Assembly: GCA_965178125.1 (NCBI GenBank)
Contig: OZ237740.1
Span: 1,302,001-1,366,000, forward strand
Source: Bilabrum cf. latius
Lineage: Eukaryota
DNA length: 64,000 nucleotides
Direction of reading: 5' to 3'
A model generated the notes under the pieces. The model was not told the origin of the DNA. It searched no databases and saw only the letters and a program-made list of their open reading frames with translations. This document shows, one piece after another, positions 1 through 64,000 of this stretch. Positions within the stretch are counted from its first letter, which is position 1. Each line of letters begins with the position of its first letter. A program made the position numbers and the translations under genes.

Positions 1-1767
1 AATCGCACCCGTCCAACCGCCGTGTCAGGCACCCTACGCGCGCGGCCCATCAAGCCCATGCCCTCCAAGGTGGCAAAGCCGATCGTGCACAAGGTAGCCG
101 CCCCTGCGACTGCGCAGCGCAAGGCTCGTCCGGCCCAGCCGGTCGCTGCCGGGAGTATCAGCAACGATCGCGATGCTGCGGATGAGCTTGCCGCGGTGGA
201 AAGCGCGATGGTGACGCCTGTTCCTTCGCCCAACCGCCAGAACAGCTCGTCTAGCGGTCGAGCACCCGCTGTAGACTTAGCGAGCGTGGCAACGGCCAGC
301 ATGGGAAGCGTGGGTCGCACGCCCGGGCCCGGGGGCTTCGATTCCCCTCGACGGCTCGGTCCTGCGGCAACGGGAGGGCAGGGACAGGGGCAGCCCCAGG
401 CCCAGGCCCAGACCCAGACCCATGGCTTCGACGACGAGAGGGAGCGGGTGGGCTTCGACCCTGCCCGCGCGCAGCACCACCTAATGGGTCAGCCTCGCCC
501 AGGTGGGGTCACCCTCGCCCACGGCATGCGGCTGGGAGGTGCCGATGAGTATCAGCGAGACGGCGGATCCATGGAGCCGGAGCTGGCTGCGGGCCAGCAG
601 CGCGGGTCGCACCCGCACGAAGCGATGCGACGAGACGGCGGGGCCGTGTATAGCCCTGTCGGTGGATCCGCCGGATCGGACGCGGCGCCGGGTCACGGTG
701 CGTACCCCACTAGCCTCGAGGGCGGCCCGTCAGCGGGCACTACGATCGGGCTGGGGCCCAACCTGCTGGCCGCCTTTGGGACTGCAGCGGCGGTGCCAGG
801 GCAGGGCGAGCACGAGCGGTCCCCCGGGCGACCGATCCCGGGGTCGGGTGCGCGCGACGAGGGGCACAGGGAGTAGGCCGGGCCCTCGGAGCTGGAGCGG
901 GAGACCTCTGCTGGTCACGTGTCCCAGGCGTCCCCCACCGGGACCGTGGACTCGCTGGGAGACCGCATCGACATATTGGCAGTGGCGCGGCAGCAGCAGC
1001 TCGAGGACGAGGGCAGGCGCGCCAGAGGCGGGAGCTACTCGGGCGGATCTGCCCTCAACCCAGATGCAGCGGCCTTTGTCGCCAGCGGAGCTGTGCCTGC
1101 GAGTGCCGTCCCGACGCTGGACGCCCCCCCTGGCCTGGTCACGGGGGCCTCGGGGGGGCTGCTGCACGGGTTCGAGGCTCCCGCGGCTGCAGAGCAGCAG
1201 GGAACAAGGGTCGGGGTTGTGGTGTCGGGCGGGACACGGCTTGATGTGGACGCGCCCAGGTTCGTGCCGAGCAGCGCCGGGGGGCAGCGTTCAAGCCCCC
1301 CGGGACCGGTCTCGAGCGGATTCGAGGCTCCGGCAGTGAGCAGCGGCGGCGGCTTGGTCGGCCTGGCGGGGCCGCCGACGAGCACAGGCATGGGCGGTCT
1401 GAGCCTGGGAGGCGTCTCTGTGGGGCTCAGTGCGGTGACCGGCGGTTCCAGTGGCATGGCGACGTCCACCACTGCATCTAGCTCGGGCATGGGCATGGGC
1501 ATTGGCTCTGGGCTGGCGTCGTTCGGTGGCCTGGGCGAGTTTGGTGCCCCCGGCGATGCGGGCCTGGGCTCGAGCATCTGGGGCTCTGGGGGGGACGAGG
1601 GGATGATTGGCTTTGGCGGCATGGGGGACCACATGCAGCTGAGAGCTGGCGTCCGCGGTGAGGAGCAGCAGGGCACAGGGGGGGAGAGTGGCTCTGAAGA
1701 CCGGGGCAGCACGGACGGGGACGGAGAAGGAATCGCGACCGACGCAGTGTCATCGCTGTTCCAGTGA
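1..1767 (+). CDS. 3' part of a low-complexity Gly/Ser/Ala-rich protein with two PAM2-like motifs (5' end outside the window)
   Basis: Frame is open from base 1. ORFs 22..876 and 919..1767 share a frame and are separated by one TAG (874-876). Ends at TGA 1765-1767. Motifs SALNPDAAAFV (~1048-1080) and RLDVDAPRFVP (~1237-1269). Confidence 0.7.
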
Positions 1768-2027
1768 GGAGCATAGATGGCTTGCGCTGCCAACTTTGAA
1801 TGATCCATAGCACAGCTACAAGTGAGTTTAAGCGGCACTACACTTTCTGTACCATGTGAGCGGTGCCATAACGTCGATACTTGGCCAAACTACGGGTAAG
1901 CCGGGGTGCTCTGCCCTCCTGCGTGGCGAGGATCACATTGTGATCATAACTTTGATGAAAAATGCACGCCACTCGCTCCGACCCAGCCCGGCTCACTTTA
2001 CATCTTTGAGGCCTACCCTGGCCCAAG

Positions 2028-5000
2028 ATGGAGCCTATTGAACTTTTTCGTATTAATATTCGCCTAAAAGATGGTACTGTGGTTGCTGTTCCGTTCAAAG
2101 ACGGTGATAACCCGTATCAATTGGCGGAGCAGTTTAGCGATACGTTCAGGCTGGATTTCCAAGCAAAGTAGGCGATTAGCGCAGCCTTATCAGAGAAATT
2201 GGCGGAATTTAACGCGAGATTATTCCAACATTCTGGTGCAGTCGACAGTCATGCCGAAACTTAGCATGAACCAGACCCTAGCATCCGCGGCACACATGCG
2301 AGCCACAGTTTGGAGCCTCAAGGCGGCACAGCTGCGGTCTGGAATAGAAGCCACACCCAAGCTTATGATCAAAAGGTACATCATGGCGCCTCATCCACTA
2401 GTTTGGGGGCAAGGCAAGCGCAATAGCAGTCATTTTTGCCGGCTGGCCAGCGCAGTTTGGAAGCGCCTGAACATGCCGCTTCTGTTGATCAGCCGAACAA
2501 AAGCACGGTTACTCCAGAACCGACGTACGTGATGCCTCTTGATGGAAAGGCAGGGGGTGATGACTCAGCAACCTTAGCAGAGCGTCTCGGTAGCACCTTC
2601 AAGGTTCACGACCTTAGCAATCGCTAGTTTGGTTTTGAAGACATTGATAGCTGGCTGCGGGCTCTGCCGTCGTACGATGTGGGGCAACTCAGCCTTGCAC
2701 GCAACCAGCTGCAGCGATTTGAAGCTCCACCGACTCTGGAATGCCTGCTTGTACTGGACCTCAGCCACAATCTCCTGGAAAGCTGCCCAGATCTCAAGAG
2801 TTGTGTGCGGCTGGTCAGTCTTAATATCAGTAATAACTTTATCAAGTCTCTTGCCCCTCTTGCTGGCTGTGTTCCGGCCCTGCAGCGGATTGACGCGAGG
2901 GGCAACGCGCTGCAGACTGCGGACGGGCTCGCGGCGCTTCCATCTTTGCGTTCTGCCGATCTTGGGGAGAATTTGCTCGGCGGAATGGCTTCCATCCGTG
3001 ACCTGTCAGCTAGCCGTACTATATAGGATCTTTCTGTTGACGGGAATCCCTTGTGCAAGCGCCGCAGTCCCGGCCGAGCAAGCAGGCGAGTTGCCTCCGA
3101 CGAGAGCAGCAGGGGAGCAGGTCCCAGCGACTGGGAGGCGCTTCGCATCGCAATCTCTGGCGTGCTGCCCCGCCTGACCACTTTGAATGGGCATGCCATT
3201 CGACAGCCGGTCCAGGACAGAAACCCAAGAGATCTAGGTTCGGCAAGAGGAACGTCGTCCAGCTCGCAGGTGTAGCGTGACAGCAGTCGGCCCCAGGAGC
3301 GCGGGAGGAGAGAAAGACCATCGTCACGCCGAAAGGGGCGGGATACCAGTAGCAGCCGCCCCGCAGTCGCATTTGGAAGAACGCTTCCGAGCAACGGCGT
3401 CAGAGGCAGGAGCATCAGTCGGAGCAGGAGCCGAGCCTCACGCGGCCGTCCCGGCTCCACGCACTCACAGGTGCGGCGACCCTCAATGCGATCAGGTAAT
3501 TCGCGCGACCGAAGTTCTGCGCCCCGCCGCCCCTCTGTCTATAGCCAGACTGGGTCGGGGCACGCGCGCACCCGGTCTGCTTCGAGGCCCAGGCCGTGGA
3601 GGGAAACCCCTGCGGGGTACAGGGCGCGCTCGTCAGCTGGAGCGCGCTTGCATCAGGGCGACAAGGGGTACTCTAGCCGGCGCACAGCACGCCGCGTCCC
3701 GCCTCCACAGCTGCCGGTGGAGTTTACCCCCCGAGTGCAACAGGCAGGTGACAGCTTCCAGTTCTCCTCCGTCGGTAGTGGTGCTGGCGAGATGAAAAGC
3801 AGAGACAATTTGTTGGAATCGACGCTCAATGCAGAGGTAGTTTCCGACGGCTGGCGAGCCGGCAATCGCGGGGAATCGTCGACTCGACCAGATCGACCAG
3901 CCCACGATCGCGACAGCACCCAATCCATCGTGGAACAGCTGCACCCAGCCTCGCGGCAAACGAGGCCACGGGGCCAAAGAGTGCGGAACAAGCATGAAAC
4001 GGGCAGTCAAGTAGCGGAAGAACCAGCTGCACACTCCAAGAGTGGGACCAATCGGGCGGTTGCCCCTTCGCGATCAGCCGGATCACCACAGGACGGGCTA
4101 GCGGACTCGGCACTGGCGAGAGACACGGATGCTGCCGAGGCAGGTCGCGGAGGCCGCCCTGCCTTGCATGCGTCGGCCTCGGCCACACAAGGTACCCTGC
4201 CCTCAGCAAGCTCCTGGTCCTCCACGCCCTCGAACGGAGCGGCCCACGGGGAGGGGCCGGTGCTGCGAGGGCCTGACACGCGGCCGCCCCCATCGCGGCC
4301 CATCCTCTCGCCTGCCCCAGCCGTGGAGGGATAGCAGGCTAGTTTCCCGGCGCAGGTGGCAAGCTGTGATGGTGAAGTCGCAACCAGCTAGAACGGTAGT
4401 GTATCCAGCAGCTTGCACGCAGCACCAGAGCTGCCTCCGGACCTGTCTACCGCAATCACGTAGGCCCAGTGGTGCGTGCAGCGCCTGCAGCGCATGGACA
4501 AGCATCTGCAAGGTCAAGACAACAGCGCGCGGCGGTCCGTCCGAACTGATCTATCGGGGGCCCTGCAGACTGCCAAAGGAGCTCTCGTTCTGGCGCGGGC
4601 CACGGGGCAAGCGGTGAGCAGGTTCGGCCAGGGCGAGCTGTCCGATCGGCATGCTTCCGCTGTGGAGTCTACCTAGAGGGCCACCTCGTCTGCATCGCAG
4701 CTGGTGGCCCTTTTGGAGGAGCGCCTCGAAGAGCTTGGGGTGCGTCTGCCGGACGATGCAGAGGGCTAGCGGGACGCATCGCATGCTCGCGAGTCAAAGT
4801 CACCGCCATCACCGCCAAAGGCACTACGATTGGACGCCAGCACGGACGTCGCGGCGGTCGATGTGCCTTGCGCTCCTCCAGGCCGGAGCCCCGCCACGTC
4901 TGGAGGGCAGGGCAGCCCCAGGTCTCACCAGAACGGAACACAGACCCGGCAGCCAGAGTTTGGTCAGTCGGAGATCTTCAAGCGGGCCCTGGCGAGGACC

Positions 5001-6572
5001 GCGTCTGCCAGGATAAGCCGAGGAGAAGGGCAGGAAGAGGGCCGGGCGCTCGGCCCCAGAGGCTCTCCTGCTGTCAATCTAGCTGGCCGCTTCGACAGCA
5101 GCTCGGTCACGTCTGGTTTCTCCGCCTCTATCCGTCGCCCAGCGAGCCGCCAGGCTCCGGGCGCGCGGTCTCCTCCCAGCAGCTAGCCGCTGCCGGCCCA
5201 AGACGTGTTTGAGCTCACCTCGGGACTGCCACGCAACTTATTCGGCGCTTCGCAAGGGGCATCAATAGAGCAAGAAGCAACGTTGGCGCCTGAGGATGAG
5301 CAGCAGGAATCTGATGGCAGGGAGGATATCGAACCGCCCAGCACGCTTGCTCCAACGGAACACGACGAGTCGCTTCTCAGCCATCCAATGTCATCGAGCA
5401 ACGGCGGTACGTACGCATCGGGCGGTGAGGCCGAGGCGGCGAGACCAGCAGGCCCCGACACATCGCACCTTTCGGAAGGGCTGCGTGCAGCCTACGGGTC
5501 TGTAGGGCTCATCAGTAGCCCAGATCGACCGGGCAGCGAGTCTCGTCATCGGAGCAGCCGCAGCAGGCGCACACCCAGTTCGTCTAGGCCTGCTTCTTCG
5601 AAAGGCCACAGCGCCGCCCCGGTAGAGCGGCGAGCAGAGCTGGTCTAGGACTCTCCTTCCATCCGTATGCTGCAGGGCACGGCTGCCTTGGCTGGGAACG
5701 GTCGGCTGCACCACGGTGAGCAAGACGAGCCTCCCTTCGAGTCGGGGCACTAGGTTGGACCGTCCCATCCCGATGGGGCGTCACTGTACGCTGGCTTGCA
5801 GCCGACCACTAGACGCGTCGATGAAGCGCCCGGCCATGGCAGCGCGCACGTGGTGTGGAGACCAGGCAGCGCATCGGTGTCGGCCAGAGGACCTCGATCG
5901 AATGGTCGGGCAGTGCACGGAGGAGGGCGCGCATCGTACAGCAACTCCAACGTGTCGCACGACTACCTAGCACGGCAGCTGCCTGAGCCCGGTGCTAACA
6001 GGTCACAATCGAGCCGGCTCCAGCCGCGCTCCATGCGCGTGTCAGACACCCCAGGCCTGGCTGGCGTGGTGGCGGCAGAGAATGCCATCAAGGCTGCCAG
6101 GAGACTGGGCACATCTGGCTCCGGTGTGCATTCAAACGGCGGCAGACCCGCAGAGGGACCGGAGGAGTCGCTTTCGGTGCGCGACCGTGCGACGCAAGGG
6201 GGCCAGTCTCGATTCATGCAGTCGTTCGCGCAGGCTGCTGATCGGCCCGTGCCCAGGCAGTCTCAGCCTGTGCTGCAAAGCCAGCCCGCCGCTCCCATGC
6301 ACGAGCCCCATAGTGCGCGAAGGAAGTTCGGCTCCGCGGCTTCCTCGACTGCCAGTGGTGCCCACCCACCGGATTTGGGTCAAGCCAGCTCGCTTCGGCT
6401 TGGCCCGCACGCGGTGCACTAGCTCCGCAGTGCCACCGCGAGCAGTGCGCAACATAGCCAAAGTAGCGCCACAGATGTTGCTGCTACGCTGGGCTCGCTG
6501 GTGTCGAAGCGCCGGGCTGCCATGGCGCGCCTGAGGCACAGGATCGCGCACGACCACGGCGCGCGGGGTTGA
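2028..6572 (+). CDS. Leucine-rich-repeat protein (SDS22/centrosomal-type LRRs plus LRR cap) with a long disordered tail, ~1514 aa
   Basis: ATG 2028 (MEPIELFRINIRL...) runs in one frame to TGA 6570-6572 through about 15 TAG codons and no TAA/TGA. LRRs LVLDLSHNLL, LVSLNISNNFI, LQRIDARGNAL, LRSADLGENLL and cap I*DLSVDGNPLC...LPRLTTLNG at ~2610-3200. Confidence 0.8.
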
Positions 6573-6839: not shown

Positions 6840-8537
6840 TCACATGCCGATGCACTTCACGTTGTTGTCCTTGCACACGTTGCCTTCTGTCTAGAGGCCC
6901 GGTAGCGACTTGATGATCCCGATGTTCTCGCTCTCGAGTACCGTGTTCTTCTCGATCGTGTTGTATTCGACCTTCTGCAGGCCATAGTACGCCATGTAGC
7001 CGCTCGAACCCAAGGACAGATCGTTGTTTGTCCACACGTTGCGGGCGCCCGTGTTTCCATCCTGCGGCTGCTGCAGCACGCCTTCCCCGTCCGTGGTGCT
7101 GTACCCCGAGGTGGTGCGCTGCCTGTGGATCTCGCCCGTGTTGCTGTCCACGAGACTGCCCGCACCGGTCTGGTCGTATCCGCGGTTCTCATTCGTGTCG
7201 GCTCCGCCCGCGCACTTGACGCCGTCGACCGAGTAGCAGGTCGAATTCGCCCTGACCTGCACGTGGTTGCCGCGGACTACCATGCCAGTGCCCTGCGCAG
7301 GCCCGCCGCGACCCGACCAAGCCACCGCGCCAGCGCCGAGATCGTCCTGGCCGTCGGGGCCTCCGAAGAACACACCGACCCTCCCGTTCATGTACACGTA
7401 GTTCTCCAGCAACGAGGCGTTCCGCACCGGATTCGTGTCCCCGGGGGCCATGCCGAGCGAGACGCCGTAGCGGTTGTCGTAGGGGAACTCCAGCGTGCCC
7501 TTGAACTCCTTGCAACCGCCCTTGGCCTCGAAGGTGACCTTGGTGGATGCCTTGGCAGTGGCCTCACCCACGAGGTTGTTCCCCACCAGGGAGTTCTGCC
7601 CCTGGCCCACCGAGATGGCGGTGGCAAACCTCCACGGCCACTCGTTCTCGCCTTCAATAGACGTCACAGGGGATCCCCAATGCCTCATGGCAGACTGCTA
7701 CGGCGGCCCGCTGGGGTACTTGTACGCCACGTTCCGCACGCGGTTGCCCAGAACCAGCAAATAGCTGGAGTTGACCCCCGATCCAGAGAGAGAGATTCCC
7801 GCCCCGTCGATGTCCAGGTTCACCACGCCCGTGTTGAAGCACGACCCAGCGGTCAGCGGCGTAGACCCGAGAGTCCCGTGCGCCGCAACCTGCTTCTGCT
7901 TCATGGGCGGCCAGCGGGCGTCGCCTTCACCTCGCTGAGCGGCAGCGCGCACGTGCGCGGGGACGAAGCCGGGGGACTCGCAGCCGATCCGCTTGTACTC
8001 GCGGTCCGGGAAGACCAGCTTGGTTGAGGGGGCCAGGGTGCCCACGGACCTGGAATGCGGCGAGATGGCTGGTCGAGTGTCTGGGTCACCCCGAAGGACG
8101 AGCCCAGGCGGCACGGCAAGATCGTCCTCGAGCTTGTACGTCCCTGCCGGCACATAAATGACACCATAGCGACCAGAAGTAGTATTTTCGTTTGCATAGG
8201 CATCTGCGGCAGCCGCTTTGATCTTGTCATCAAGTAATTTTCCGCTGTAGTCGCTGACAGACTGCGTCAAGGTGAATACACTTCGATGGGAGCAAGAGCA
8301 GAGGATAGAACGCGCTGTTGTGATCTTACGGATACACATTACCATACTCACATATACACACTGCCAAGGTACTAGTTCAGTCCACGCAAGATCCTTCTTG
8401 AGCGTGGGAAACCTAGTCAAGACAGGATTCGAAGTCGGGCACTAGTGTTCTGCTGCTGTGCAAGACTTGGAGCCGCACTACGAGGCAGACACGCCAACCG
8501 GAATTAAACCAATAGCAAAGAGCGCAGCACGAATCAT
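6840..8537 (-). CDS. Secreted pectin-lyase-like right-handed beta-helix protein (putative polysaccharide-active enzyme)
   Basis: Signal-peptide-like start MIRAALFAIGLIPVGVSAS. Motif IKAAAADA...GVIYVPAGTYKLEDDLAVPPGLVLRG is typical of the Pectate_lyase_3-type N-terminus, followed by Asn/Gly-rich beta-helix turns. Four in-frame TAG. Ends ...KCIGM-TGA (6840-6842). A possible in-frame 81-nt intron near 8281-8361 is unresolved. Confidence 0.7.
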
Positions 8538-8648
8538 GCTTGTCTCGAACAAGTGTCGCTGCTCGAGCAGTGTGATTGAAACGCGCTCCGGATCGAGCAA
8601 GTGCAACTTGTTGAACTGCCGCGATTCAGCACGCCCACACTCACCCGC

Positions 8649-11600: not shown

Positions 11601-11696
11601 TGCGACGAAGCTGCATAGGAGCAAAGCACTGTCGCGATAGTGCTGGATGGGCTGGTCCATCGCACCGTACAGTATGAAGTTGAGTATTCGCGATGA
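8649..11696 (+). CDS. Secreted clan GH-A (GH5-like) glycoside hydrolase, ~1015 aa
   Basis: Signal peptide MRPSVAQLVAVVLLVHATLVRSA. Motifs RLWGANL, KLGFNAIRL, LLTHVNPYTG..WAADPAL, acid/base EITNED (~9741-9758) and nucleophile-like TVTEFN (~10281-10298). TAG at 8889, 8976, 11208 and 11616 read through. TGA 11694-11696. Confidence 0.8.
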
Positions 11697-11938
11697 TGAT
11701 GATCGTGGAAGCCTGGCTTGGTGGTTGGCGCCGCGCGACGTGTTGGTTCCGCTAGTTGCACTTGCGATCGACAGCGACGCATCATTCGGCTTGTGTTCGT
11801 GTTGACGTCCACACATTCCCTTCCGTGTCTTAAAGCGTGAGCCAAGTTGTTTATATTGATATAATCGATACATGAGCCCTGTTCAATTTGTTCCAAGATC
11901 CGCGTAGTATGCTGTGCTCATAGCTCGCAGATCACATA

Positions 11939-14616: not shown

Positions 14617-14932
14617 ATCCATCCGGTCGAGAGGGAGGCGCGGCGCTGATGGATGTGTCTGGCGGGCCCTGGCTGCCCGACCACAGTGTGTGCAGAGGAT
14701 CAGCCACCTACACCACGGGCTGGTTGTGTTTTTGCAAAGTCAGTCGCACAGAATATCCACCTTAGCTGTTAGCAACAAGGCAGAAAGAGTAGAAAGTTGT
14801 AGAGATATTCATCACCGGTGTCCTTGGGCGCAGCATGACGGTAAGAATCTCAAGCAGCACACGATCCATCGAGTTTGTGAGCACTGAACTCAATATCCAC
14901 CTCTACGACATTGACGTGGCTCACCTGCTCCA

Positions 14933-49131: not shown

Positions 49132-49465
49132 ATTCTCCAGTTATACACCTTGTCGGACCTGAGATGTTGTATGCAAGATGCTGCAGACCCATGCATACGG
49201 GCACGCACGGCAGTTGACGCTGCTTTAAATTGCACGGAACAATTAATAAATACGATTTCTGCGAAACACCCGAGAAGACTAAAGGCATCAAAGCGGACTG
49301 CAATTTGCACTGAGTTTGCATTGAAGTAAGCTTTTCAAAGTAGCTGCAACAGCGAAAGCCGACGCGGTATTGGAGCTCAAGTTGGCGTGATCCAGGATGG
49401 GCAAGGGATACGGGTAGGGTCGCGGCCGCGGAGGCGGGCGCGGAGCTTGTGATGCCTTGACAGAC

Positions 49466-53700: not shown

Positions 53701-56700
53701 CGGACGTGCACATGGCGCTCGCGGGAGAGACCAACCCAAGGAGGGGCCTCGCGCTTCTGCGTTGCGCGCGGCTTGCGGCCGCCTGTGTGATCCTCGACCC
53801 GGACGCGGACACGGACGTGGACCCGACCGCCATCCCCCGGGTGCTTGGTCACCACACGGACAGGCTCGTGCCGAAGAAGCCAGCCGGTGCAGGCGACGGT
53901 GGTGGTGCATCTGCCCCTGCCCCTGCCTCGGCCCCTGCTGCAGCCACAAAGCAGCAGGGCGTGTCTCGCTCGTCCATCTCGCAGTTCGTGGCTGACCGCC
54001 CAGGGCAAACCATCGGTGGTGCTGCGCTGGGCCTCTCTGCGCATGCGCTGGACAAGTCTGAGCTGGTACCACTGCTGGTGAGGATGCTGGCGGCGTGCAA
54101 CGCCGGCCTTGGGGACGTAGCGGTGGGCCGGCCCGTCGCCGGAGTGGAAGCCGGGTACTTTGGCCGAGCCGGAAATGGGCCTGCGTTCGCTCCTGCCGGC
54201 AGCGGCAGCGTTCTGTTTCGGCAAGACGCCGAGCTGGGCGGCTCGGCGATCGTGGGGAAGGACCCTCTGCGGTTCGGCGTGCCGCTGGTGGGACTAGCGG
54301 GGAAGTCCGGTCCCGGCGACGAGGAAGCGAAGACAGGGGGAGGCTATGAGGAGGAGGAGCACGACAACGAGGAGGATGATCCGCTGACTGCAGAAGACGA
54401 GTTCGGGGGGTCGGCGGCCGGGGGACGATCTGGGGGCCGCCCAAGCAGGCGACCGTCATCGCTTCGGTTCGCTGCCGCCATGGAGGCGCGCCGGGAGCAG
54501 CAGGTCCGAGACAGCATGCGCACTGTCTGGCTGCTGGACACCATGCAGCGGCCCTCGAGCGTCCCCGGTATGCCCCTGCATTTCTTGCTCGCAGTACGCT
54601 AGGAGTGTGTGCTCGCGCTGCGGCTGCTGCTGACGCTGCCCTCCAACGCGGAGAGCCTGCTGAGGGAGGATCTGGGGATCGACGCGCTGCTACCGCTGCT
54701 CGTGGCCCCTGCTGATGCCGACCCTGAGCCACTGAAGCCGCTCGTAGGCGAAGGCGCCTCGAGTGGGGGGGCGGCCTCTTAGGATCAAGACGGGGACGGG
54801 CCCGCGAGCGGCGCGGGGGCCGGTGGAGATGCGGGCGAGGAGGACCACGACCACGACGACGACCAGCTGCATGCTTCGGAGGACGAGGGCGATCAGAGCG
54901 ATGGAGGCGGTGCTCGGGGCAGAGGAAGCGGCGGCAAGGGTGGTGGTGAGCCGGGTGATGGGGGCGAGGACGATCAGGAGGATAAGGGAGGGCTCGCTGG
55001 CGCGCGGCAGACGGACGTGTACTCCGCGCTGCTTCGCATCGATCCGGACACGAGGCTCGAAGTCTCCGAGGCAGCGCCTCTCACCGCTGCGCAGGCTGCC
55101 CGCGCGGCCTGCGAGGCGCTCATCGTGGGCGTCTGGGCCGCCCCCCGAGTGGCGCGGTCCTTCGCCCGTGAGGACCGCATGCAGGCCCTGGTGCTGCCCC
55201 TGCTGCAGACCACCTCGCACCCCCGCCTGGTGGCATCTGTGCTCAAGCTGTGCCGCGAGGTGCTGCCCAGGTGCCCCCTGTACCACCCCGCCATGCCCAG
55301 GCATGCAATCTTCCGCGTCCTGCTGCTCACAGGCGACTCGCTCTCGGCGCACAGGCAGCGGAGCAGGGCCAACAGGGAGCGCGAGCAGCGGTCGCGGAGG
55401 GCGCTGGGCCAGCGGGCGCGCGGGGCCGGCGGCGAGAAGCGGTCGGCGCAGCGCACCCGGGACGCCGAGGCCACGGACGAGGCCTCCGCAGAGAACCAGT
55501 TCCGGTTCACGCGGGTGGGGGAGGGCCTGTGCTTCGACGCCGCGGCACTCATCGAGGAGCTGCACCTCGCCCACGCGGACGCGTTCTATGCCGGGGACAA
55601 GGAGCTGTCCTCGGCGCCGACCCTCGCCATCGCGAGACACAAGGCCTCCCCGCTGTGCGACGAGGCGGCGGGGGCGGACGGCCTCGGCGAGCGGTCGCTG
55701 GGCCTCCACAGCGCGGGTGCCTCCCGAGCCGTGCTGGGGCCCTCTGACCCCACCCACGAGCTTGCCGACGTGGAGGCAGCTCGCGCAACCCAGTGCGCTG
55801 AAGAGTCTGGGGCTCGGCTTGCACCCGCAGTGGGGGGCTACCCAGCGGCGTACGGTGGCGTAGGCGGCATCGCCGCGGGGCAGGCGCCTGCGCTCAACAG
55901 CGCCGGACTGCTGTGTGCCGGCGCGGGCGACGGGCTGCCGACCTGGGCCTCCGCAGGAGGGGGTCTCGGCGCGTCGGCTGCGGCAGATGGGGGCCTGGGC
56001 TTGCTGGAAGGAGGAGGGGCTGCGTCGGGAGCGGGGGCGGGTGAGATGCCTGGCGCCGCCGCTGCGGCCGCCCTGCGACCCCCCGGGCTGGGCTCGCTGG
56101 AGCTCGCCCGCCCGTCCTTTCGGTCCTCGCTGCGGCGCCGTCGGACCACCACCAAGCAGGAGCACACGTTCGACCAGGCTTCCTCGCTGCAGATGCTGCT
56201 TCCCCCGAGCCTTGTGAAGCTCGTCCGCAAGCGAGGGGCCGCCGCCCTCTGCCGCGTATTCAACGCGAAGCTGCACGCCTCCAGCGACGCCCTCTGGTCT
56301 GCCGACATGCGGCGCACCCTCATGCGGCAGCTGCGCCGCAACCTGGCCCCCCTCCTTGGTTGGGTCAAGCACAGGGCGCTCGCTAGGCGGAGGCTGCACC
56401 CCGCTGCCCCGCTGACGGCCATGGAAGACCCGAGGGGTGGGCATGGCCTCTCGGGGCTGCCCGCGCTCTCTGGGACCGGCAGGCTGCCGAGTGCATGGGA
56501 CTGCGGCGCCGTGCAGACCTCCCCGCTCGGCCTGCCACCGGTCACGGGGGGTGCCCAGTTGGCCTACCCGTCCGTCCTGCACACGCCCGCCCCTCGGCGC
56601 GTGCGGTTTCCGCAGCTGGACGACGAGCCCCGGGTGGCTGGGGTGTACCTGCGCGTGTACGTCGGCGGGGCCCCGCTGCCGTGTGCCTCCAAGCGGTTCC

Positions 56701-59700
56701 TGCGCTCTTTGCTCAGGGGGCTGCACGAGGAGGTGGCGGCGCTGTCCGCGGCGCACCTGACGCTGGTGGAGGGCACGGTGGATGCGGCGGCGAGGCTGGC
56801 TGGCGTGGAGGTGAAGGGAGCGGCGACGGTCAAGGCGCGGGCCGGGGCGGCGGCCAGGGCGGGCGGGGTAGACGTCGGCAAGCAGGCCCCGGGCATGGAT
56901 GGCGGGGCTGGCAGTGCGCTGCACCGAGACGGCGGCGTGGCCATCGCGGAGGTGGGCGCCACTGTGGACCCTTCTCTGCTGCTGGCCAAGAAACCGGCGC
57001 CTGGTGACTCCGACGGCGGGGATAACGAGGACGGGGGCGGTGCCGGTCCGGGAGGGAAGCAGGGGCCCCACGGCGGGGGCTCCTCCTCTGGGGGAGGCAG
57101 GCGCAGCGGCGAGTCCGCGTGGGACCTTGCGCGGTCCTATCTCGGAGAGTCCGATCTGTCGGACGACGACGAAGCGGCCGTGGCTGCTGCGGGTGGCAGG
57201 CGGATACTGTCTCCCACGGCGCTCTACCGCAGGCACCACTTGCGCTGCCTCGTGACTCTGCAGGCGCTCGCTCGCTTCCTCGAGGACAGCCCGGGGGCGC
57301 CTATGCCCCTGCACGTCTTCGGCGCGCTGGCCGTGCTCATGGGGCTGCCGCAGGGGAGGTACCCGGCGGTGGCGGCGCAAGGGATCGACACGGCGGGCGG
57401 GTTTGCAGTGGACGAATCGGGGCGGGTCGACGCGTCGGGCGCCAACGTCGGCGGCGGGGCCGCGGCCTCGCCTCTGCCGTCGAGCTTCGGGCTCGGCGGG
57501 GGCGCGCCCGGGGCCGTGCCTGCGGCCCGCGGCTCGATTGCGTCCGGCATGTCGGAGGGTAAGCAGAGCGAGGGCGGCGGCAGCGGCTCGGACGACTCGG
57601 GGTCCTCCTCGGACGACGAGACGGCGCACAAGGGGCAGGTCGGCGCTGCCTCTAAGCCGAACGCCGCCAAGCTGCGGCTCTCCCTGGACACCACGTACTC
57701 CATCGACAACCTGCCTCCGCTGCCGGCGCCCCTGCTGCTGCTGCTGCCCCCGGCGGCAGTGTTCGACCTGGACGACGACCCTTTCAGGGACGCGTTCATC
57801 GACGCCACGCGGGCCGCGAGCTCCAGAGCCGGGGAGGAGACCGGTGGCGGGGGCAAGCAGAGGCCGCCGGGCCCGCCGAGCAGAGGCAGCGGCAAGGGCA
57901 AGGGCAAGCGGGGGTCCGCTAGGGTGCGCTTCGCCGGCGCATCCGACAACAGCGAGGCGGCTGCGAGCGGCGGGGCTGCAGGCGGCGGCCTCGGCCCACT
58001 CACCGCGGCGGACAGCGCGGTGTACGCTCCCCTCCGAGAGCAGCGGCAGGCAGAGCGCGTGCGGGGGCTGGCGCAGTCCGCCGAGCTGCAGGGGGAGAGC
58101 CTGCTGACGGCGGCCATAGCGTGTCTCAAGTCGGCCATCTGCCCCGCGGTGCAGCGGGTGGCCTCAAGGGAGGCCGTGGAGGACGCGGCGGACGGGGGCA
58201 GCCTTGGCGCTCTCCTGGGTCTCATCGGATGGTGCGTGCCACTAGAGTCGGCCGCCTGCCGGGAGATCCTGCGCAAGGCCGGCGCCGACGAGAACGTGCC
58301 TCCCATCGCGGCATCCGCGGACCACGGGCCGATTTTGCCGTCCAGCGCCAGCCCGGCGGCGCTGTCTCGCCCGGAGAGGGCTCGGCTGTGGCTCATGGAG
58401 CCGGTGCTGAGCAAGGGGCTCGACGTGGTGCGGCTGGCGTGCGGGAGCGACGCAGGGGTGCAGCTGTTCCTGCGGGCGCCGCACCTGGCCGCGCCCCTGC
58501 TGCGCTGCGCCAGGGCGCACTGGGACGAGTTCGATGCCGCGGCGAGGGCCAGGCGCGAGCAGGCCGCGCTGCAGGGGGCGGGGCGGAGGGACGTGAGCGG
58601 TGGCGCTAGTGGGCAAGGGGAAGAAGAGGATGCTGCTGGCGGGCGGCACCCTTCAGGTGCGCGAGGGGGGCAGCAGCAGGTGGTGGTGCTGGCCGGGGGT
58701 ATCGGGGGCCAGGGCATGTGGGTGCCTGACGATTTCCTGACGGCGCAGTCGGCGATGCGGCTGGTGGCTCCTGCCCTCCGCTGCCTCAAGGGCCTGTGCG
58801 AGGTGTACTGCCTGAAGCGCGCGCTGCTGGACATGGGTGTGGTGGTGCACCTCGTGCAGACCGCGGTGGCCGGGCCCAACGCCCTCGGGCAGTTCCCCCT
58901 CGCCGGGGAGGACCCGGACGAGGTGCCCTCGCCAGAGGCGCTCGGCTCGATGGGCGGGACAGTGCGGGAGGGGGAGGGGCGGGGGGCGGCCTCCGGTGCG
59001 GGTGGGCGGAGGTCCACTGCGGCCCCCACGCGCCGCCGGAAGTGGGCCCTTCTGGAGGACGACTCGGCCGCGATGCTTGCCGATGCAGGTGAGGAGCTGT
59101 CCATCGTGCAGGCCGTGACCATGGGGATGAAGAGGGCCTTCGCGGGAGCCAAGCAGGGACGCGGTGGGGAGGGGGGCGAGGGCGGCGGGGGGACTGGCAG
59201 TGAGGGAGGGGGAGAGGAGGAGGACGAGGGCTTCGACACCCACTCGTCTCGCCGAACGGGTCGGATGGCGGAGCAGGCCTCCGAGGTGAAGGAAGAGGAC
59301 GGCTGGAGCGAGATCCAGATCAGGAGGCTGGCGGAGATCGCGCTGCGGGTGCTGGTGCGGCCCCCCAAGCGAGTGGTCTCCGAGGCGGAGGCCAAGCGGA
59401 GGGACGAGGACAAGAGGCGGCAGGGGGTCATCGGGGGGGGCAGGCCGGCCGCGGGTGCTGGTGCAGACTCTGCCTCTGCTCCCGACCCGGCCTCGACCAC
59501 CCCACCAGCTGCTGCTGCCGCTGCCACCGGCGGGAGTGCCGCGACTGGAGACGCCTCGGACCAGCAAGCAGCCAAGCGCGCCAGCGATCGGATCAAGAAG
59601 AGGCAGAGCGTGTTCGTCGGGGGCGGCAAGGGAGCGGACGGGGGTCCCTTGCGGCTGGACTCGGCTCAGATGGTGGCCCTGGTGCAGGCCAGCAAGCAGG

Positions 59701-62700
59701 CCAAGGTCGCCAAGGCCAGCCCGCTGAGGGAGGAGGCGGCGGAGGAGGACTCCAGGGCCACGGAGCAGGCGCAGGCCGTGCTCAAGTCGCTGCTGACCCC
59801 GGGGCTGTACAACATGATCCGGCCCCCGCCCACCGCCGAGGAGAGGCTGGCAGCGGCCCGGAGGGACAGGGAGGCCGCGGCTGCCTCAGGCGCAGGGTCG
59901 GGCGCTGCCGGCGAAGCGGACTCGGAGCAGAATGCGCCCGGTGCAGGCGCGGGGGCCCAGTCGCAGTCGCAGTCGCACGAGTCCTTCGTGCGGGTTGCCC
60001 TCCGCGGGCGGCCCACGGAGAAGCCGAGGGTCATCTGGACGGAGCACCTGCGGAGGAGGCTGCTGCGGAGGCTGAGCCACGAGGCAACTTACGCGGACCA
60101 GCGGGCCGTGGCCCAGTGCCTCCGGGAGACCGTGGGCGTCGGTTCGCCCTGGAGCTGGCGGGACGTGTCCAAGAAGGCGAGGCGGAGGCTGAGCAAGGCG
60201 GTGCGAGGGATCATGGCCACCGGTCGCATGTCGGCGCTGGCGCGGATGGCAGCGAGAGGCAGGGACGGGGAGGAAGACGAGGACGAGGACGAGGACCCGA
60301 ACGAGGACCCCTCTGGCAGCGGCACCGGCTCTAGAGGCGTGGCCAGAGGAGGCGCTGCCTCTGCGGCTGCGGCGCACGAACAAGAGGCGCAGGACGACGC
60401 TGCCCAGCGCGCGATCGAAGCCAAGATCGTCCACGGGCACGTCGCGGCGAGACTCGGTGCCAAAACAGCGGGGGGCGGCGTTGCTGGAGCGGGTCTCGGC
60501 GCGCTGGGCGGGTCCCTCGGCGCGGGGAGTGCGGGCAGCGCGCTTGGCGGCGGGTCCGGGGTGGGCCCCGGTGGCCTCGGCGCGTTCGGTGCCAGCTCCG
60601 GCGTGGGGGGCGGTCCCGTGGGCGGTGTGGGCGGGCTCGGTCTGGGCTCGTCGGGGGAGGAGTTCGACACGGTGCTGCTGCCTCACAAGCGGGCCCCGCA
60701 CCCCATGCTGTGGCAGGGCGAGAGGTACTCGTCCCCCGACGAGTACCGCACGATCTTCCCCACGCTCGCCGAGGAGCTGGTTATCGAGGGCGTGTACGTG
60801 AGGCTGTACCTTCGAGAGAAGGACCTGAGCCAGGCCAAGCCCGAGCCCCGGTCCCTCGCCCTCTCGCTGCTCAACGACCTGCACGACCTGCACGACAAGT
60901 ACAGGGTGTACGACCCCATCCCGGAGAAAGAGCTCCGCGTCATGGCCATGCTGCTGCAGTCGGGGGCTACCCTGCTCGTGCGCATGCCCAGCCTGCGCTT
61001 CGTGTGCGCCGAGAGCGCGCACCTGCCCGCCCTGGTGACCATGCTGACCCGGGACCTCCTCGCGCACACGCGCACGATGCGGATGGGCCGCGGGGAGGGC
61101 GACGAGGTGGGCGGCATGGTGGGCCACCTGTGGGCCAAGGCCATCCACTCGGCGGTGGCCATGGCCTCCGTGGTGGCCAACTCACCCAAGGGCGCAGAGG
61201 CGCTCAGCTCCCAGCTGCACGCGGCGCACCTGCTGCTCCGCCGAGAGGAGATCCGCGGGGACGACGGGAGGTGGAGGGAGGCGCGGGAGGGGGAGGAGAG
61301 GGCCGCGCCTGGGCAGGGCACCGGCAGGAAGGCGGGGCCAGGGGAGGAGGAGGAGGACGAAGAGGTGGAGGAGAGTAGCGACGAAGAGGGGGGAGGGCAG
61401 GAGGGCGAGGGCCTGGGTGCACTCTCCACCCGCGGGGCCAAGCGGCTGTACATGGGCGAGGCGGCCTCGGGGATGCTCATGGACCGGAGGATCAAGCGCA
61501 CCGTGGCGACGTTCTGCCTCAGGCTGCTGGGGCACGTGCTGCGGAGGCACACGCCCTGCCGGCACATGTTCGCGGACCACGGTATCGCGCTGACTGTTCT
61601 CTCGGTCCTGTCCGAGGCCCTGCAGAAGCAGTCGGACGAGAAGCGGCTGCTGGCGGTGCGGGCGATCGTGGCTGCGGCGGGAGGAGGGGCCGCGCCACCG
61701 TCGTCGAGGACGTCGAGCGGTGGAGGCACGGCCCCGGCGGCGGCCGTGGCGGCGGGGGGGGCTGCCTCGGGGGCCGGGGCGGGAGCGGGAGAGCAGGCCG
61801 GGGGAGGATCGAGCCAGGAGGGTATGGACGGGGAGGCGGCGCTGACGATGCAGGGAGGGGTGGACGCCGCGAACGACACCAAGAGCGCCGTGGCGGAGGG
61901 GCTGGGCGACGGGGAGGCAGAGACGCGGGCGCTGGGATACGTGTGCCAGGTGCTATGGCCGCTGTTCGATAACAAGCTGCGGAAGAGGCAGGTGCTGGCC
62001 CGCGGGTGGGCTTTGCCCCAGGGCGTGGTGGCTGCCTGGAAGCAGAACTTGCGGGAGCCGCACATCTATTGGGGCAAGGACACGAGGGAGGACGTGGTGA
62101 ACTTTGTGATCCAGGAGTGGACCGCCATGGACGACTGGCTCGCGTCCAGGCCGGAAGAGCCCTTCCGTTACCGCCTCGACTCTCTGCGGGACAGGCTCAA
62201 GCGTCCCGCGCTCGAGAAGCAGCTCATCGTGGCCGACGTGTTCGTGCACGCATTCAACCGGAAGCCTTTCTTCCGGGACCTCGAGCCCAAGCCCTTTTTG
62301 CAGGCTCTGCTGGAGCGCGCGGGGACGGCCTACCCCATCGTGACCAACCCGGGGGTCACTCCCGAGCAGCTGGCAGACGTGCACGGCCTCTGGCGGGCCG
62401 TCGGCCACGTGCTGGAGTCGCACTCGTCACTCAGCGAGGACAAGGTGTGCGTGGACGCGGTGCCCCTGCTCCTGAGCTACCTGCTGCCCGCGGTTGCCTT
62501 CCACGCGCAGCACGCCGTGCTGGGCGTGCTGCACGCACTGGTGCAGGACACGGCCATCGTGGAGGCCGCGGATGCGTGCAGCCCCACCACCGCCGCGCGG
62601 GTGCTGGCGGTGTTCCCTGCCGCGCGGGGGGCAAGGGGGGCCGGTGGTGCTGGTGGTGCTGGTGGTGGTGCGGCAGGCGGGGCGGCGAGTGGGAGCGGGG

Positions 62701-63347
62701 CCTCGGGGGGTACTCAAGCCGCCGCCGATGACGTGGACAGCGTGCAGGACGGCAGCAGCGACGAAGATGAAGATGGAGATCAGGACGACGGCGACGAGCC
62801 GGACCCACTCCCTTCGGGCGAGTCGCTGCTGCTGGACACGATCGCTGGCATGTGCAAGCGGAGCAGTGCCCTGGGCCGGAGGTTCTTCCTCTCTGGTGTG
62901 GCTCTATATGCGGTGCACCTGCTGGCGACTCACGCGGGCGACGATGCCGCGGTGCCCATGGAGGTGGCTGCCCCTGCCGCCCGCGTGCTGTGCACCCTTG
63001 TGCTGGACCGGTCCCACGGGATGGCAGTCAAGGAGGTCGTCTGCGACATGCTGACGCCTTCCTTCAGCCTGCAGACGGCCTTCGAGCGCAAGCCCGAGGC
63101 CTTTGTGCGGTACTTTCTGAGGGACCACCGGGACGAGTCCTCTGGCCGCCGGTGGAACGGGGAGGCGAGGGAGAGGCTGCAGCAGTTCCTGGCCACGGAG
63201 ATATCAAACCTGGAGCAGGCCGTGAAGCGGGCAGGGGTGGACTCGTGGGATGGGAGGTCCCCACGCTGGGATTCTGCGAGGCTGCGGCAGCTGCACGCCA
63301 CGCCGATCGACGTGGCAGTGTTGCGGGAAGGGGCTGCCGGGGACTGA
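50790..63347 (+). CDS. Giant ARM-type protein (~4084 aa) with RME-8/DNAJC13/GRV2-like IWN repeats (introns 50907-51001, 51050-51143, 51497-51610)
   Basis: Repeated W-containing motifs, most followed by EL-hydrophobic strands: VWRGVSLAELR..MLRVGELFV, LWSADMRRTL..EPRVAGVYLRVY, IWTEHLRRRL..EELVIEGVYVRLY, YWGKDTREDV..QLIVADVFVHAF, RWNGEARERL. ORFs 51621..54602 and 55017..63347 are in frame and linked via TAG 54600 and 54780. TGA 63345-63347. The 5' exons are inferred from splice signals. Confidence 0.68.
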
Positions 63348-63552
63348 TTTGTTGCTACTCGCCAGTTGGAGCCTTTTGCCTTTTGATTGCGCCGCACATC
63401 ACATCGGACTGAATTATAATCCGATGTATTTTGGGGTTCGAACCCACACAATCGAGCCCAGGCGTGCTTGAAACGGTCACGCCGGCTTATGTGGCCGAAC
63501 GACTCCGAGTCGTTCAATTTCGGCCCACATTGGCACTTCCTTCCTTCACAAG

Positions 63553-64000
63553 ATGAAGCGACTATGCTCGATTCTGTTGCTCCCTTTTATCGTTGAGCTT
63601 GGGTCAGCACGCACCTCCGTGGCATTCTAGGGCGGTGGGGCGCTGGGACACGCCGCAGCGTCGTATTTGCTATCCAACTTGCAGCTAGTTGCAAACGTCC
63701 AAGCGAATGCTACCGATGCTCAATGCCTTTCTGGTGGATATGACCTCTGCGTTACTGTTGGAAACACCTACTTGGCTCATCAGATTGCGGGCGTGCCTCT
63801 CAATCTGTCTACACTGGGCAGCGAAGCATTCGGCGTAGCGACAAACCAGAGTGGAACGACGCTTGTTCTGGCGGCATATGGTAACGCGTACATCAACAGC
63901 AGCGGGTTTAGCACAGAAGGGCCCGTGAACGGCGCCCTGTACGGGGCATTCGCAATCTTGGAATCGCTCGGATTCGGGTTTCTGCATCCGCTCGAGCCGC
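63553..64000 (+). CDS. 5' part of a secreted protein with a GH20/GH67-N-terminal-like (DUF4838-type) domain
   Basis: Signal peptide MKRLCSILLLPFIVELGSA and TAG at 63628. Motif LGSEAFGV...GALYGAFAILESLGFGFLHP. Open to the window end. Confidence 0.55.

What the first reader, a model, noticed from the sequence alone, without database searches (positions are those of the whole stretch)
1..64000. Non-standard nuclear genetic code: UAG is a sense codon across the whole window
Seen: all 16 genes, on both strands, contain in-frame TAG (about 100 by manual count) but no internal TAA or TGA. Same-frame ORF fragments abut at TAG, for example 9024..11210 with 11211..11618, and a 12-kb chain on the minus strand. 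TAGs fall inside intact conserved domains (GH3, PRUNE, PGAP3, LRR, SPFH). Fourteen of the 15 visible gene ends are TGA. Knowledge: nuclear reassignment of UAG alone is rare (UAG=Gln is NCBI table 15; reported for Iotanema), and UAA and UAG usually change together. Inference: this GC-rich, intron-poor protist does not look like a ciliate, so it may be an undescribed independent code change.
Basis: partly seen in the sequence, partly recalled or inferred. Interest (0 to 1): 0.97.

Follow-up and report, generated by a model that had tools for sequence, protein, structure and literature searches.

The report
Stop codon UAG encodes glutamine here
In this GC-rich eukaryotic DNA the usual stop codon TAG occurs about a hundred times inside expressed genes and stands for glutamine, a rare genetic-code change known from only a few other protists.

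Summary
Sixteen reading frames bounded by TAA/TGA (19,504 codons, both strands) contain 104 in-frame TAG, 0 TAA and 0 TGA. The two other frames of the same stretches hold 35-46 TAA and 235-304 TGA. Spliced contigs from three public runs carry the TAG codons unchanged, so this is not editing, introns or assembly error.

TAG means glutamine. Protein fragments from close relatives (84-95% identical) cover 12 TAG positions of the 4115-codon frame: 9 Gln, 1 Lys, 1 Ser, 1 His. Gln is favoured over Lys by 10^12.6 and over Glu by 10^19. TAG also falls on a conserved Gln in GH3 (5 of 5 solved structures) and in the Per1 family (best Pfam score of 15 residues tried).

TAA is not a sense codon: 0 seen, about 30 expected. 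TGA ends every frame. The relatives' fragments break only at our TAG, CAG or GAG codons (8 of 8), so they seem to share the code.

The code matches NCBI table 15. The lineage is unidentified but looks non-ciliate. No published report was found. The tRNA and eRF1 could not be examined, because no genome is held.

The parts
1..1767 (+). ORF open at the window's 5' end, low-complexity protein, 1 in-frame TAG, ends TGA
2010..6572 (+). 1520-codon ORF with leucine-rich repeats, 15 in-frame TAG, ends TGA
   Evidence: Pfam LRR_4 at residues 247-285; counts; TAG contexts
6840..8669 (-). 609-codon ORF with signal-peptide-like start and a weak pectate-lyase-like match, 4 in-frame TAG, ends TGA
   Evidence: no solved relative
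8580..11696 (+).
11931..14616 (+). GH3 beta-glucosidase gene with exons 11931..12388, 12541..12885 and 13039..14616. TAG at 12026..12028 and 12667..12669
   Evidence: Spliced contigs in X5 and X7 with GT..AG introns and 0 other letters. TAG 12667 aligns to Gln in 5 of 5 solved GH3 chains shown. TAG 12026 aligns to Gln in 2 of 3 shown and lies next to it in the third
14933..16579 (-). 548-codon ORF with no family match, 2 in-frame TAG, ends TGA
16710..18818 (+). PRUNE/exopolyphosphatase-like (DHH) gene, TAG at 16890..16892 in the N-terminal motif plus 2 more inside the protein, ends TGA
   Evidence: The only homolog found, P0001, has Glu at the motif TAG. A conserved C-terminal motif lies 80 codons after the last TAG
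19011..22994 (+). 1327-codon low-complexity ORF, 6 in-frame TAG, ends TGA
23141..24981 (-). Per1/PGAP3 gene with exons 24600..24981 and 23141..24512. TAG at 24899..24901, 24707..24709, 24503..24505 and two in the tail
   Evidence: Spliced contig X6 record 16 with 0 other letters. Pfam Per1 score is highest with Gln at 24707..24709 (57.8 bits, against 56.3 Lys and 54.4 Glu)
25157..26248 (-). Thioredoxin_4 (DsbA-like) gene with intron 25756..25868. It ends with the tandem TAG TAA TGA at 25165..25157
   Evidence: (joint in X5, X6, X7)
26071..28023 (-). 650-codon ORF, 4 in-frame TAG, ends TGA
28159..40506 (-). 4115-codon ORF (Kelch and TIG matches) with 37 in-frame TAG. 12 of them are covered by close relatives' protein fragments: Gln x9, Lys, Ser, His
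40750..49140 (-). MyTH4-domain gene made of two same-frame ORFs (8 + 10 TAG) joined across an inferred 111-nt intron 47583..47693 that holds an in-frame TGA
   Evidence: the intron is inferred from GTGAG...CAG ends and was not checked by reads
49521..50586 (+). SPFH/Band 7 gene with an inferred first exon to about 49746 carrying TAG at 49686 and 49704. The second exon has no TAG and ends TGA
   Evidence: exon 1 is inferred from sequence only and Pfam does not match it alone
51501..63347 (+). 3948-codon ORF with high third-position GC (GC3 0.84), a weak RME-8 N-terminal match, 3 in-frame TAG, ends TGA

Best explanation
This is nuclear DNA of a GC-rich, intron-poor eukaryote whose ribosomes read UAG as glutamine. 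UGA is the working stop codon, and UAA is not used as a sense codon. The code therefore matches NCBI table 15.

Shown here: TAG is in frame in expressed, spliced messages; TAG corresponds to Gln; TAA is absent from coding frames; TGA lies at every gene end.

Inferred, not shown: decoding is by a glutamine tRNA with anticodon CUA, derived from tRNA-Gln(CUG) by one anticodon change. It would be accompanied by an eRF1 that no longer recognises UAG efficiently. The change was probably eased by the rarity of TAR stops in a GC-rich genome. UAG behaves as a minor Gln codon (12% of Gln codons). It is rare in the frames with the highest GC3.
For: (1) Frame statistics. 104 TAG, 0 TAA and 0 TGA in 19,504 in-frame codons, while the other two frames of the same DNA hold 81 TAA and 539 TGA. 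The 4116-codon frame alone has 37 TAG, and its other frames have 21 TAA and 126 TGA.

(2) Transcript evidence. Runs X5, X6 and X7 hold contigs that skip GT..AG introns (152, 153, 87 and 113 nt), while X1 runs through them. 24 of the 34 in-frame TAG in 11500..31499 lie in the listed pieces of those three runs. The only two letter differences (28267, 29510) are not in TAG codons. X6 record 16 also carries both Per1 exon-1 TAG.

(3) Amino acid. Close relatives' fragments cover 2391 columns and 12 TAG columns of the giant frame: Gln 9, Lys 1, Ser 1, His 1. Our own Gln columns are Gln in the relative in 86.4% (n=110); our Glu columns are Gln in 1.3% (n=150). The log10 likelihood is best for Gln, with Lys -12.6, Arg -13.7, His -15.8, Glu -19.3, Ser -33 and Leu -36.

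(4) Conserved sites. The GH3 TAG aligns to Gln in 5 of 5 alignments shown. For the Per1 TAG, Gln scores 57.8 bits, the best of 15 residues tried; X scores 53.8.

(5) Translation continues past TAG. The PRUNE-like C-terminal motif follows three TAG. The last TAG of the giant frame, 9 codons before TGA, is Gln in relative P0035, whose alignment runs to the same end.

(6) TAA. None in frame, against about 30 expected if TAA were used like CAA relative to CAG (173:589). Reading through TAA only adds 4-138 codons at 5' ends.

(7) Stops. 16 of 16 frames have TGA at the end or, in one case, directly after TAA.

(8) The relatives' fragments end at 8 places that are TAG (3), CAG (3) or GAG (2) in the window.
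Against: - The TAG in the PRUNE-like N-terminal motif aligns to Glu in the only homolog found.
- 3 of the 12 relative-covered TAG columns are not Gln.
- The Pfam GH3 and DHH models do not discriminate between residues.
- No tRNA gene lies in the window and no genome is held, so neither a CUA-anticodon tRNA nor eRF1 was seen.
- There is no peptide evidence.
- That TAA terminates is not shown: the single TAA at a frame end is followed at once by TGA.
- The relatives' DNA was not seen, so that their breaks are TAG is inferred.
- The runs with spliced contigs are recorded only as 'RNA?' guesses.
- All Gln evidence from relatives comes from one gene.
Confidence: 0.9

Rival explanations
1. Both UAA and UAG encode glutamine (NCBI table 6, as in many ciliates, hexamitid diplomonads and several ulvophycean green algae), and TAA is merely rare because the genome is GC-rich.
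For: TGA is the stop at all 16 frame ends, as in table-6 organisms. TAA is rare everywhere in the window, at 45-54 per frame. No gene is shown to terminate at TAA alone.
Against: 0 TAA against 104 TAG in frame. CAA is 23% of CAR codons (173 of 762), so about 30 TAA would be expected. Reading TAA as sense joins no two coding frames and adds only 4-138 codons at 5' ends.
Confidence: 0.04
2. UAG has two meanings, glutamine inside genes and stop at some gene ends, depending on context, as in Condylostoma, karyorelicts or Blastocrithidia for other codons.
For: Not excluded. A gene that truly ended at TAG would look like a frame running on to the next TGA. One gene ends TAG-TAA-TGA. Long low-complexity tails follow the last TAG in some frames, for example the Per1 tail.
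Against: The last TAG of the giant frame lies 9 codons before TGA and is Gln in a relative that aligns to the same end. The conserved C-terminal motif of the PRUNE-like protein lies after its last TAG. 16 of 16 frames reach a TGA.
Confidence: 0.05
3. There is no dedicated CUA tRNA. UAG is read by near-cognate tRNA-Gln(CUG) through first-position mispairing, made efficient by a weakened eRF1. The meaning is the same but the mechanism differs.
For: No tRNA gene is in the window, so nothing speaks for a cognate tRNA directly. UAG is rare in the frames with the highest GC3 (0-0.8 per 1000 codons against 3.5-20 elsewhere), as expected of a poorly read codon.
Against: A frame with 37 UAG needs near-complete decoding at each. 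The other UAG=Gln lineages discussed in the passages read of PMC5304391 are explained there by cognate tRNAs derived from tRNA-Gln(CUG).
Confidence: 0.1
4. The TAG are not translated. They would be assembly errors, pseudogene lesions, edited sites, or lie in introns.
For: None found. One in-frame TGA does lie in an inferred in-frame intron, and two TAG of the Dsb-like frame lie in a real intron.
Against: TAG codons stand unchanged in contigs of four runs from three studies, including spliced ones. Total absence of TAA and TGA from the same frames is incompatible with decay. TAG falls on conserved Gln positions.
Confidence: 0.01

Closest known systems
UAG=Gln with UAA kept as stop (NCBI table 15): Iotanema spirale (Fornicata), Protocruzia tuzeti, and the phyllopharyngean ciliates Hartmannula sinica and Trochilia petrani
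   Same: Only UAG is reassigned, and it goes to glutamine; UAA is not sense (passages of PMC5304391, and PMC11687900). As in the rhizarian of PMC5304391, the reassigned codon is scarce in some genes.
   Different: In the two phyllopharyngean ciliates UAA was the stop at 93.5-100% of aligned protein ends. Here TGA ends 16 of 16 frames and TAA is nearly absent. The genome is 58-74% GC in 4-kb windows with multi-kilobase genes on long contigs, unlike the ciliate nanochromosomes I recall. The lineage is unidentified.
UAR=Gln (NCBI table 6) in Ulvophyceae (Dasycladales, Trentepohliales + Cladophorales + Blastophysa), many ciliates, hexamitids, oxymonads and an aphelid
   Same: TAG means Gln and TGA is the functional stop (passages of PMC8271138).
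   Different: TAA is also Gln there. Here there are 0 TAA in 19,504 in-frame codons against about 30 expected.
Scotinosphaera (Ulvophyceae): TAG=Ser with TAA still a stop
   Same: A UAG-only reassignment in a non-ciliate (PMC8271138 passages; PMC11687900).
   Different: The meaning differs. Ser is disfavoured here by 10^33 relative to Gln, and Ser scores at baseline in the Per1 test.
Rhizarian exLh (Sainouroidea): UAG=Leu
   Same: A UAG-only reassignment with UAA and UGA as stops. UAG is rare in highly expressed genes (PMC5304391 passages).
   Different: The meaning differs. Leu is disfavoured here by 10^36 and gives the lowest Per1 score.
UAG=Glu (uncultured oligohymenophorean ciliate with UAA=Lys; peritrichs and Blastocrithidia with UAR=Glu)
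   Same: UAG is a sense codon. One TAG here aligns to Glu.
   Different: Glu is disfavoured by 10^19. None of the 12 relative-covered TAG columns is Glu.

Membership tests
NCBI table 15-type nuclear code (UAG=Gln; UAA and UGA stops) | UAG occurs in frame inside protein-coding sequence of mature messages | tested here: met
   104 in-frame TAG in 19,504 codons with 0 TAA and 0 TGA. TAG is kept in spliced contigs of X5, X6 and X7.
NCBI table 15-type nuclear code (UAG=Gln; UAA and UGA stops) | UAG corresponds to glutamine | tested here: met
   9 of 12 TAG columns are Gln in close relatives, with a likelihood margin of 10^12.6 or more. GH3 gives 5 of 5 Gln. Gln gives the best Per1 score. One contrary column aligns to Glu.
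NCBI table 15-type nuclear code (UAG=Gln; UAA and UGA stops) | UAA is not a sense codon | tested here: met
   0 in-frame TAA against about 30 expected. No coding frames are joined by TAA.
NCBI table 15-type nuclear code (UAG=Gln; UAA and UGA stops) | UAA still terminates translation | tested here: inconclusive
   The only TAA at a frame end is followed directly by TGA. 16 genes are too few to tell.
NCBI table 15-type nuclear code (UAG=Gln; UAA and UGA stops) | UGA terminates translation | tested here: met
   TGA lies at the end of 15 frames and one codon after the end of the sixteenth. There is none in frame except in an inferred intron.
NCBI table 15-type nuclear code (UAG=Gln; UAA and UGA stops) | A tRNA-Gln with anticodon CUA | not testable with these tools
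   No tRNA in the window and no genome held.
NCBI table 15-type nuclear code (UAG=Gln; UAA and UGA stops) | eRF1 N-domain changes that weaken UAG recognition | not testable with these tools
   eRF1 is not in the window and no genome is held.
NCBI table 6 (UAA and UAG = Gln) | UAA used as a Gln codon alongside UAG | tested here: not met
   0 TAA against 104 TAG in frame, with CAA:CAG = 173:589.
UAG=Ser (Scotinosphaera), UAG=Leu (rhizarian exLh), UAG=Glu (some ciliates) | UAG aligns to Ser, Leu or Glu respectively | tested here: not met
   log10 likelihood relative to Gln: Ser -33, Leu -36, Glu -19. Per1 scores: Ser 53.9, Leu 52.8, Glu 54.4, against Gln 57.8.
Context-dependent stop/sense codes (Condylostoma, karyorelicts, Blastocrithidia) | The same codon also ends genes, and is depleted just upstream of true stops | tested here: inconclusive
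   TAG occurs 9 codons and 1 codon before stops, and no gene is seen to end at TAG. However, 16 genes cannot exclude occasional TAG termination.

The most novel reading that the evidence does not exclude
This is an independent, so far unreported origin of the UAG-only-to-glutamine code in a GC-rich, non-ciliate lineage, possibly a heterotrophic stramenopile. Relatives in public assemblies appear to share it, and more distant fragmented homologs come from environmental assemblies. In this lineage UGA has become effectively the sole terminator and UAA is an almost unused codon. That would be a natural example of stop-codon capture driven by GC pressure, with genome and transcriptome data already public.
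Probability: 0.45. Interest if true: 0.75.

Novelty: new member of a known kind. Interest (0 to 1): 0.62.

Why it matters
UAA and UAG nearly always change meaning together. The passages read name a handful of nuclear exceptions: a rhizarian, Iotanema, Scotinosphaera, Protocruzia, some phyllopharyngean ciliates and one uncultured ciliate. A further case in a GC-rich genome that terminates on UGA would help in three ways:
- It gives a contrast for testing how eRF1 separates UAG from UAA.
- It allows a test of whether GC pressure first made TAR stops rare (codon capture).
- It allows a test of how a new Gln codon spreads through genes of different codon bias.

There is also a practical consequence. 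Any annotation of this assembly and its relatives under the standard code will shatter genes. The database fragments found here are broken at exactly these codons.

Tried and rejected
**Searches for the decoding machinery and more sequence**
- No whole genome is held.
- ARAGORN found 0 tRNA in the window and Rfam found 0 families.
- Earlier findings of this scan: nothing by place, words or sequence.
- The look-up of sequencing runs listed no RNA holder on record; three runs were only guessed to be RNA.

**Homolog searches that found little or nothing**
- The giant frame against proteins of similar length: no hit.
- Two scans of metagenome contigs, with the giant frame and with relative P0004: no confirmed locus.
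- The PRUNE-like protein: only 1 homolog by the word-based search.
- Solved structures: no match for the PRUNE-like protein, the 8649..11696 protein, the 6840..8537 protein, the RME-8-like stretch around its TAG (one chance-level hit at E 0.76) or Per1 exon 1.
- No paralogous segments within the window.

**Scoring tests that did not discriminate**
- Scoring alternative residues at TAG against Pfam was uninformative for GH3 (35.1-35.9 bits) and DHH (13.7-15.6 bits).
- The same test was uninformative for the first Per1 TAG, which lies outside the model.
- It was also uninformative for the inferred SPFH exon 1, which gave no Band_7 match.

**Context statistics**
- A neighbour-residue likelihood did not discriminate.
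- Gln is enriched next to TAG (16 of 201 neighbours, 2.0x). So are His, Lys, Asn and Tyr, so I read this as local base composition and not as evidence.

**Taxonomy**
- The ESM Atlas look-up of the SPFH protein gave only generic Band 7 clusters and no help with taxonomy.
- Names for relatives: 1 of the 21 proteins looked up carries a species (Incisomonas marina, EukProt). The rest are unnamed.
- Fragment ends of distant relatives (30-58% identity) could not be interpreted.

**Rejected readings:** pyrrolysine (eukaryotic genes, TAG aligns to Gln), pseudogenes, RNA editing and TAG confined to introns.

Full report
**What is in the window.** The 64 kb are 58-74% G+C in 4-kb windows and contain no tRNA and no Rfam family. 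Read with the standard stops, the longest frames are 2854, 1157 and 1005 aa, and many same-frame pieces abut. Read with TAG as sense, frames of 4115, 3948, 2292, 1520 and 1327 aa appear on both strands. Making TAA sense instead leaves the longest frames unchanged. Making TGA sense gives many more frames but no comparable lengthening. Pfam matches mark these frames as eukaryotic genes: leucine-rich repeats, GH3 with PAN and Fn3-like domains, DHH (PRUNE-like), Per1/PGAP3, Thioredoxin_4, MyTH4, Band 7, Kelch/TIG, and a weak RME-8 N-terminal match.

**Is it more than chance?** In the 16 frames I take as genes (19,504 codons) there are 104 in-frame TAG, 0 TAA and 0 TGA. The +1 and +2 frames of the same DNA carry 132/129 TAG, 35/46 TAA and 235/304 TGA. 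TAG is therefore about as frequent in frame as out of frame, while the other two stops are excluded completely. 99 of the 104 TAG lie after the first ATG of their frame. Seven more TAG sit in upstream exons of GH3, Per1 and (inferred) SPFH.

Fifteen frames end in TGA. The sixteenth ends TAG-TAA-TGA. One in-frame TGA separates two same-frame ORFs of the MyTH4 gene. It lies in a 111-nt stretch with GTGAG...CAG ends, similar in size to the confirmed introns, and I read it as an in-frame intron. This was not verified.

**Are the TAG in the message?** Seven public runs from three studies hold the giant gene. I laid four of them on 11500..31499. X1 runs colinearly through everything. X5, X6 and X7 hold contigs that skip GT..AG stretches:
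- 12389..12540 and 12886..13038 in GH3;
- 24513..24599 in Per1;
- 25756..25868 in the Dsb-like gene (the last two on the minus strand).

So these contigs derive from spliced RNA, although the records only guess 'RNA?'. Of the 34 in-frame TAG in the laid stretch, 24 lie within the listed pieces of these three runs. The only two letter differences reported (28267, 29510) are not in TAG codons. X6 record 16 also carries both TAG of Per1 exon 1 with no other letters. The table of pieces was truncated, so coverage is a lower bound. Contigs cannot exclude rare variants. The DNA run may be the window's own source and is not independent support.

**Which amino acid?** Early single-site evidence was split:
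- The GH3 exon-2 TAG aligns to Gln in all 5 solved GH3 chains shown.
- The GH3 exon-1 TAG aligns to, or lies next to, a Gln in 3 chains.
- The TAG in the PRUNE-like N-terminal motif aligns to Glu in the only homolog found.
- Scoring the Per1 exon with 15 alternative residues at the TAG in a conserved motif of the family gave Gln 57.8 bits, Lys 56.3, Arg 55.2, His 54.5, Glu 54.4, X 53.8 and Leu 52.8.
- The same trick was uninformative for GH3, DHH and SPFH.

The decisive result came from relatives. An exhaustive HMMER search with 1200 residues of the giant frame gave 26 hits. A word-based search for shorter proteins added four fragments. Twelve fragments from three Logan contigs (11.9, 5.2 and 5.0 kb) are 84-95% identical to the window's protein, cover 2391 of its 4115 columns, and span 12 of its TAG. 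There they read Gln at 9 positions (360, 997, 1119, 1173, 1583, 1628, 1787, 3766, 4106), Lys at 208, Ser at 859 and His at 1131.

As a control from the same alignments, the window's Gln columns are Gln in the relative in 86.4% (n=110). Its Glu columns are Gln in 1.3% (n=150). With substitution frequencies taken from those alignments, Gln is the best reading by 10^12.6 over Lys, 10^19.3 over Glu, 10^33 over Ser and 10^36 over Leu.

These fragments were called under a code in which TAG stops, so their Gln are ordinary CAA/CAG codons. The differences are therefore TAG/CAR exchanges between relatives. All of this comes from one gene. The GH3 and Per1 sites are independent support.

**Do the relatives share the code?** The close relatives' fragments end at eight distinct places. 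In the window these are TAG (3), CAG (3) and GAG (2), so all eight are TAG or one first-base change from TAG. The simplest reading is that the relatives carry in-frame TAG there too. More distant homologs (30-58% identity) also occur as strings of short fragments on single JGI/ENA contigs, but their ends could not be interpreted.

**TAA and termination.** CAA makes up 173 of 762 CAR codons. If TAA were used like TAG, about 30 in-frame TAA would be expected. None is seen. Reading through TAA only extends frames by 4-138 codons at their 5' ends or joins them to antisense shadows. TAA is thus not a sense codon. Whether it still terminates is open, because the one TAA at a gene end is followed immediately by TGA.

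Dual use of TAG as an occasional stop cannot be excluded with 16 genes. However, TAG nine codons before the giant frame's TGA is Gln in a relative that aligns to the same end. The PRUNE-like protein's conserved C-terminal motif also lies beyond its third TAG.

**Usage.** TAG is 12% of Gln codons overall (104 of 866). It is scarce in the frames with the highest third-position GC: 0 in the GH3 exon-3 frame and 0 in the SPFH frame, and 0.8 per 1000 codons in the RME-8-like frame. Elsewhere it runs at 3.5-20 per 1000. This resembles the pattern described for the rhizarian with UAG=Leu (passage of PMC5304391).

**Mechanism (inferred).** The most likely machinery is a tRNA-Gln with anticodon CUA, derived from tRNA-Gln(CUG) by one anticodon change. 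This is the explanation proposed for Iotanema in the passages I read of PMC5304391. It would work together with an eRF1 that discriminates against UAG. Neither could be looked for, because no genome is held.

**Comparison with what is known.** I read passages, not whole texts, of three papers. Supplements were closed.
- PMC5304391: UAG=Leu in a rhizarian and UAG=Gln in Iotanema, with UAA retained as a stop.
- PMC11687900: UAG=Gln in Hartmannula, Trochilia and Protocruzia; UAG=Ser in Scotinosphaera; UAG=Glu with UAA=Lys in one ciliate; and the remark that table 15 is misnamed after Blepharisma.
- PMC8271138: TAR=Gln in three ulvophycean groups with TGA as the stop, and TAG=Ser in Scotinosphaera.

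The code here is the table-15 type. It differs from the two phyllopharyngean ciliate cases read about in relying on TGA and not TAA for termination, and in its genomic setting. It is not table 6.

**Who is it?** Unknown. The only species name attached to any homolog is Incisomonas marina (EukProt), for a distant match of 35% over about 180 residues. From recall, that is a heterotrophic stramenopile, so this is a weak lead only. The GC-rich, Ala/Gly-rich proteins, the few short GT..AG introns (87-153 nt) and the multi-kilobase genes do not resemble ciliate macronuclear DNA as I recall it.

Eight full-text searches found no report of UAG reassignment in labyrinthulomycetes, other stramenopiles, or any GC-rich non-ciliate protist. 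The library lacks most subscription journals.

**Verdict.** The amino acid is glutamine. The code variant is already known. The lineage appears to be a new bearer of it, with relatives that share it.

Noticed in passing
window 25157..25165 (-): The thioredoxin-like gene ends with all three classical stops in tandem, TAG TAA TGA. Under the inferred code the protein gains one Gln and then meets two stops.
   Followed up: partly
window 47583..47693 (-): A 111-nt stretch (a multiple of three) with GTGAG...CAG ends holds the only in-frame TGA between two long same-frame ORFs. It is probably an in-frame intron joining them into one MyTH4 gene of about 2750 codons. It was not checked by reads.
   Followed up: partly
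window about 46400..47400 and 48300..48750 (-): There are long tandem amino-acid repeats in the MyTH4 gene: about a dozen copies of a unit of roughly 28 residues (KAEEADGDKKEEQGDAGVSDVAAGAGAG) and about 14 copies of GDGQDGGEGE (translations).
   Followed up: no
window 34900..35100 (-), residues about 1800-1870 of the giant frame: An AT-richer, Lys-rich stretch with three TAG is followed by a hydrophobic, membrane-span-like segment. Several distant homologs (P0007, P0012, P0014, P0018) end at or near this point, while the window's frame runs on for another 2200 codons. This may be a fusion, or an exon boundary in the others.
   Followed up: no
window 51501..63347 (+): This frame has much higher G+C (0.68-0.74) and third-position GC (GC3 0.84) than its neighbours. 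It has four repeat motifs that from recall look RME-8-like (IWN-type), but Pfam finds no DnaJ domain.
   Followed up: no
window 26003..31499 and beyond (-): One 14.8-kb contig of run X5 is colinear across the 26071..28023 gene and into the giant gene. Its length would carry it to about 40845. Contigs cannot show whether this is one transcript.
   Followed up: no
runs X1-X7: Near-identical sequence is held by runs filed under three different coded organism names in three studies. The organism may therefore be filed under several names, or live with other organisms. I did not pursue this.
   Followed up: no
window 12961..14616 (+), residues 203-258 of that frame: The GH3 C-terminal domain carries an inserted PAN/Apple domain (Pfam PAN_1 and PAN_4). 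From recall, this is an unusual architecture for a beta-glucosidase.
   Followed up: no
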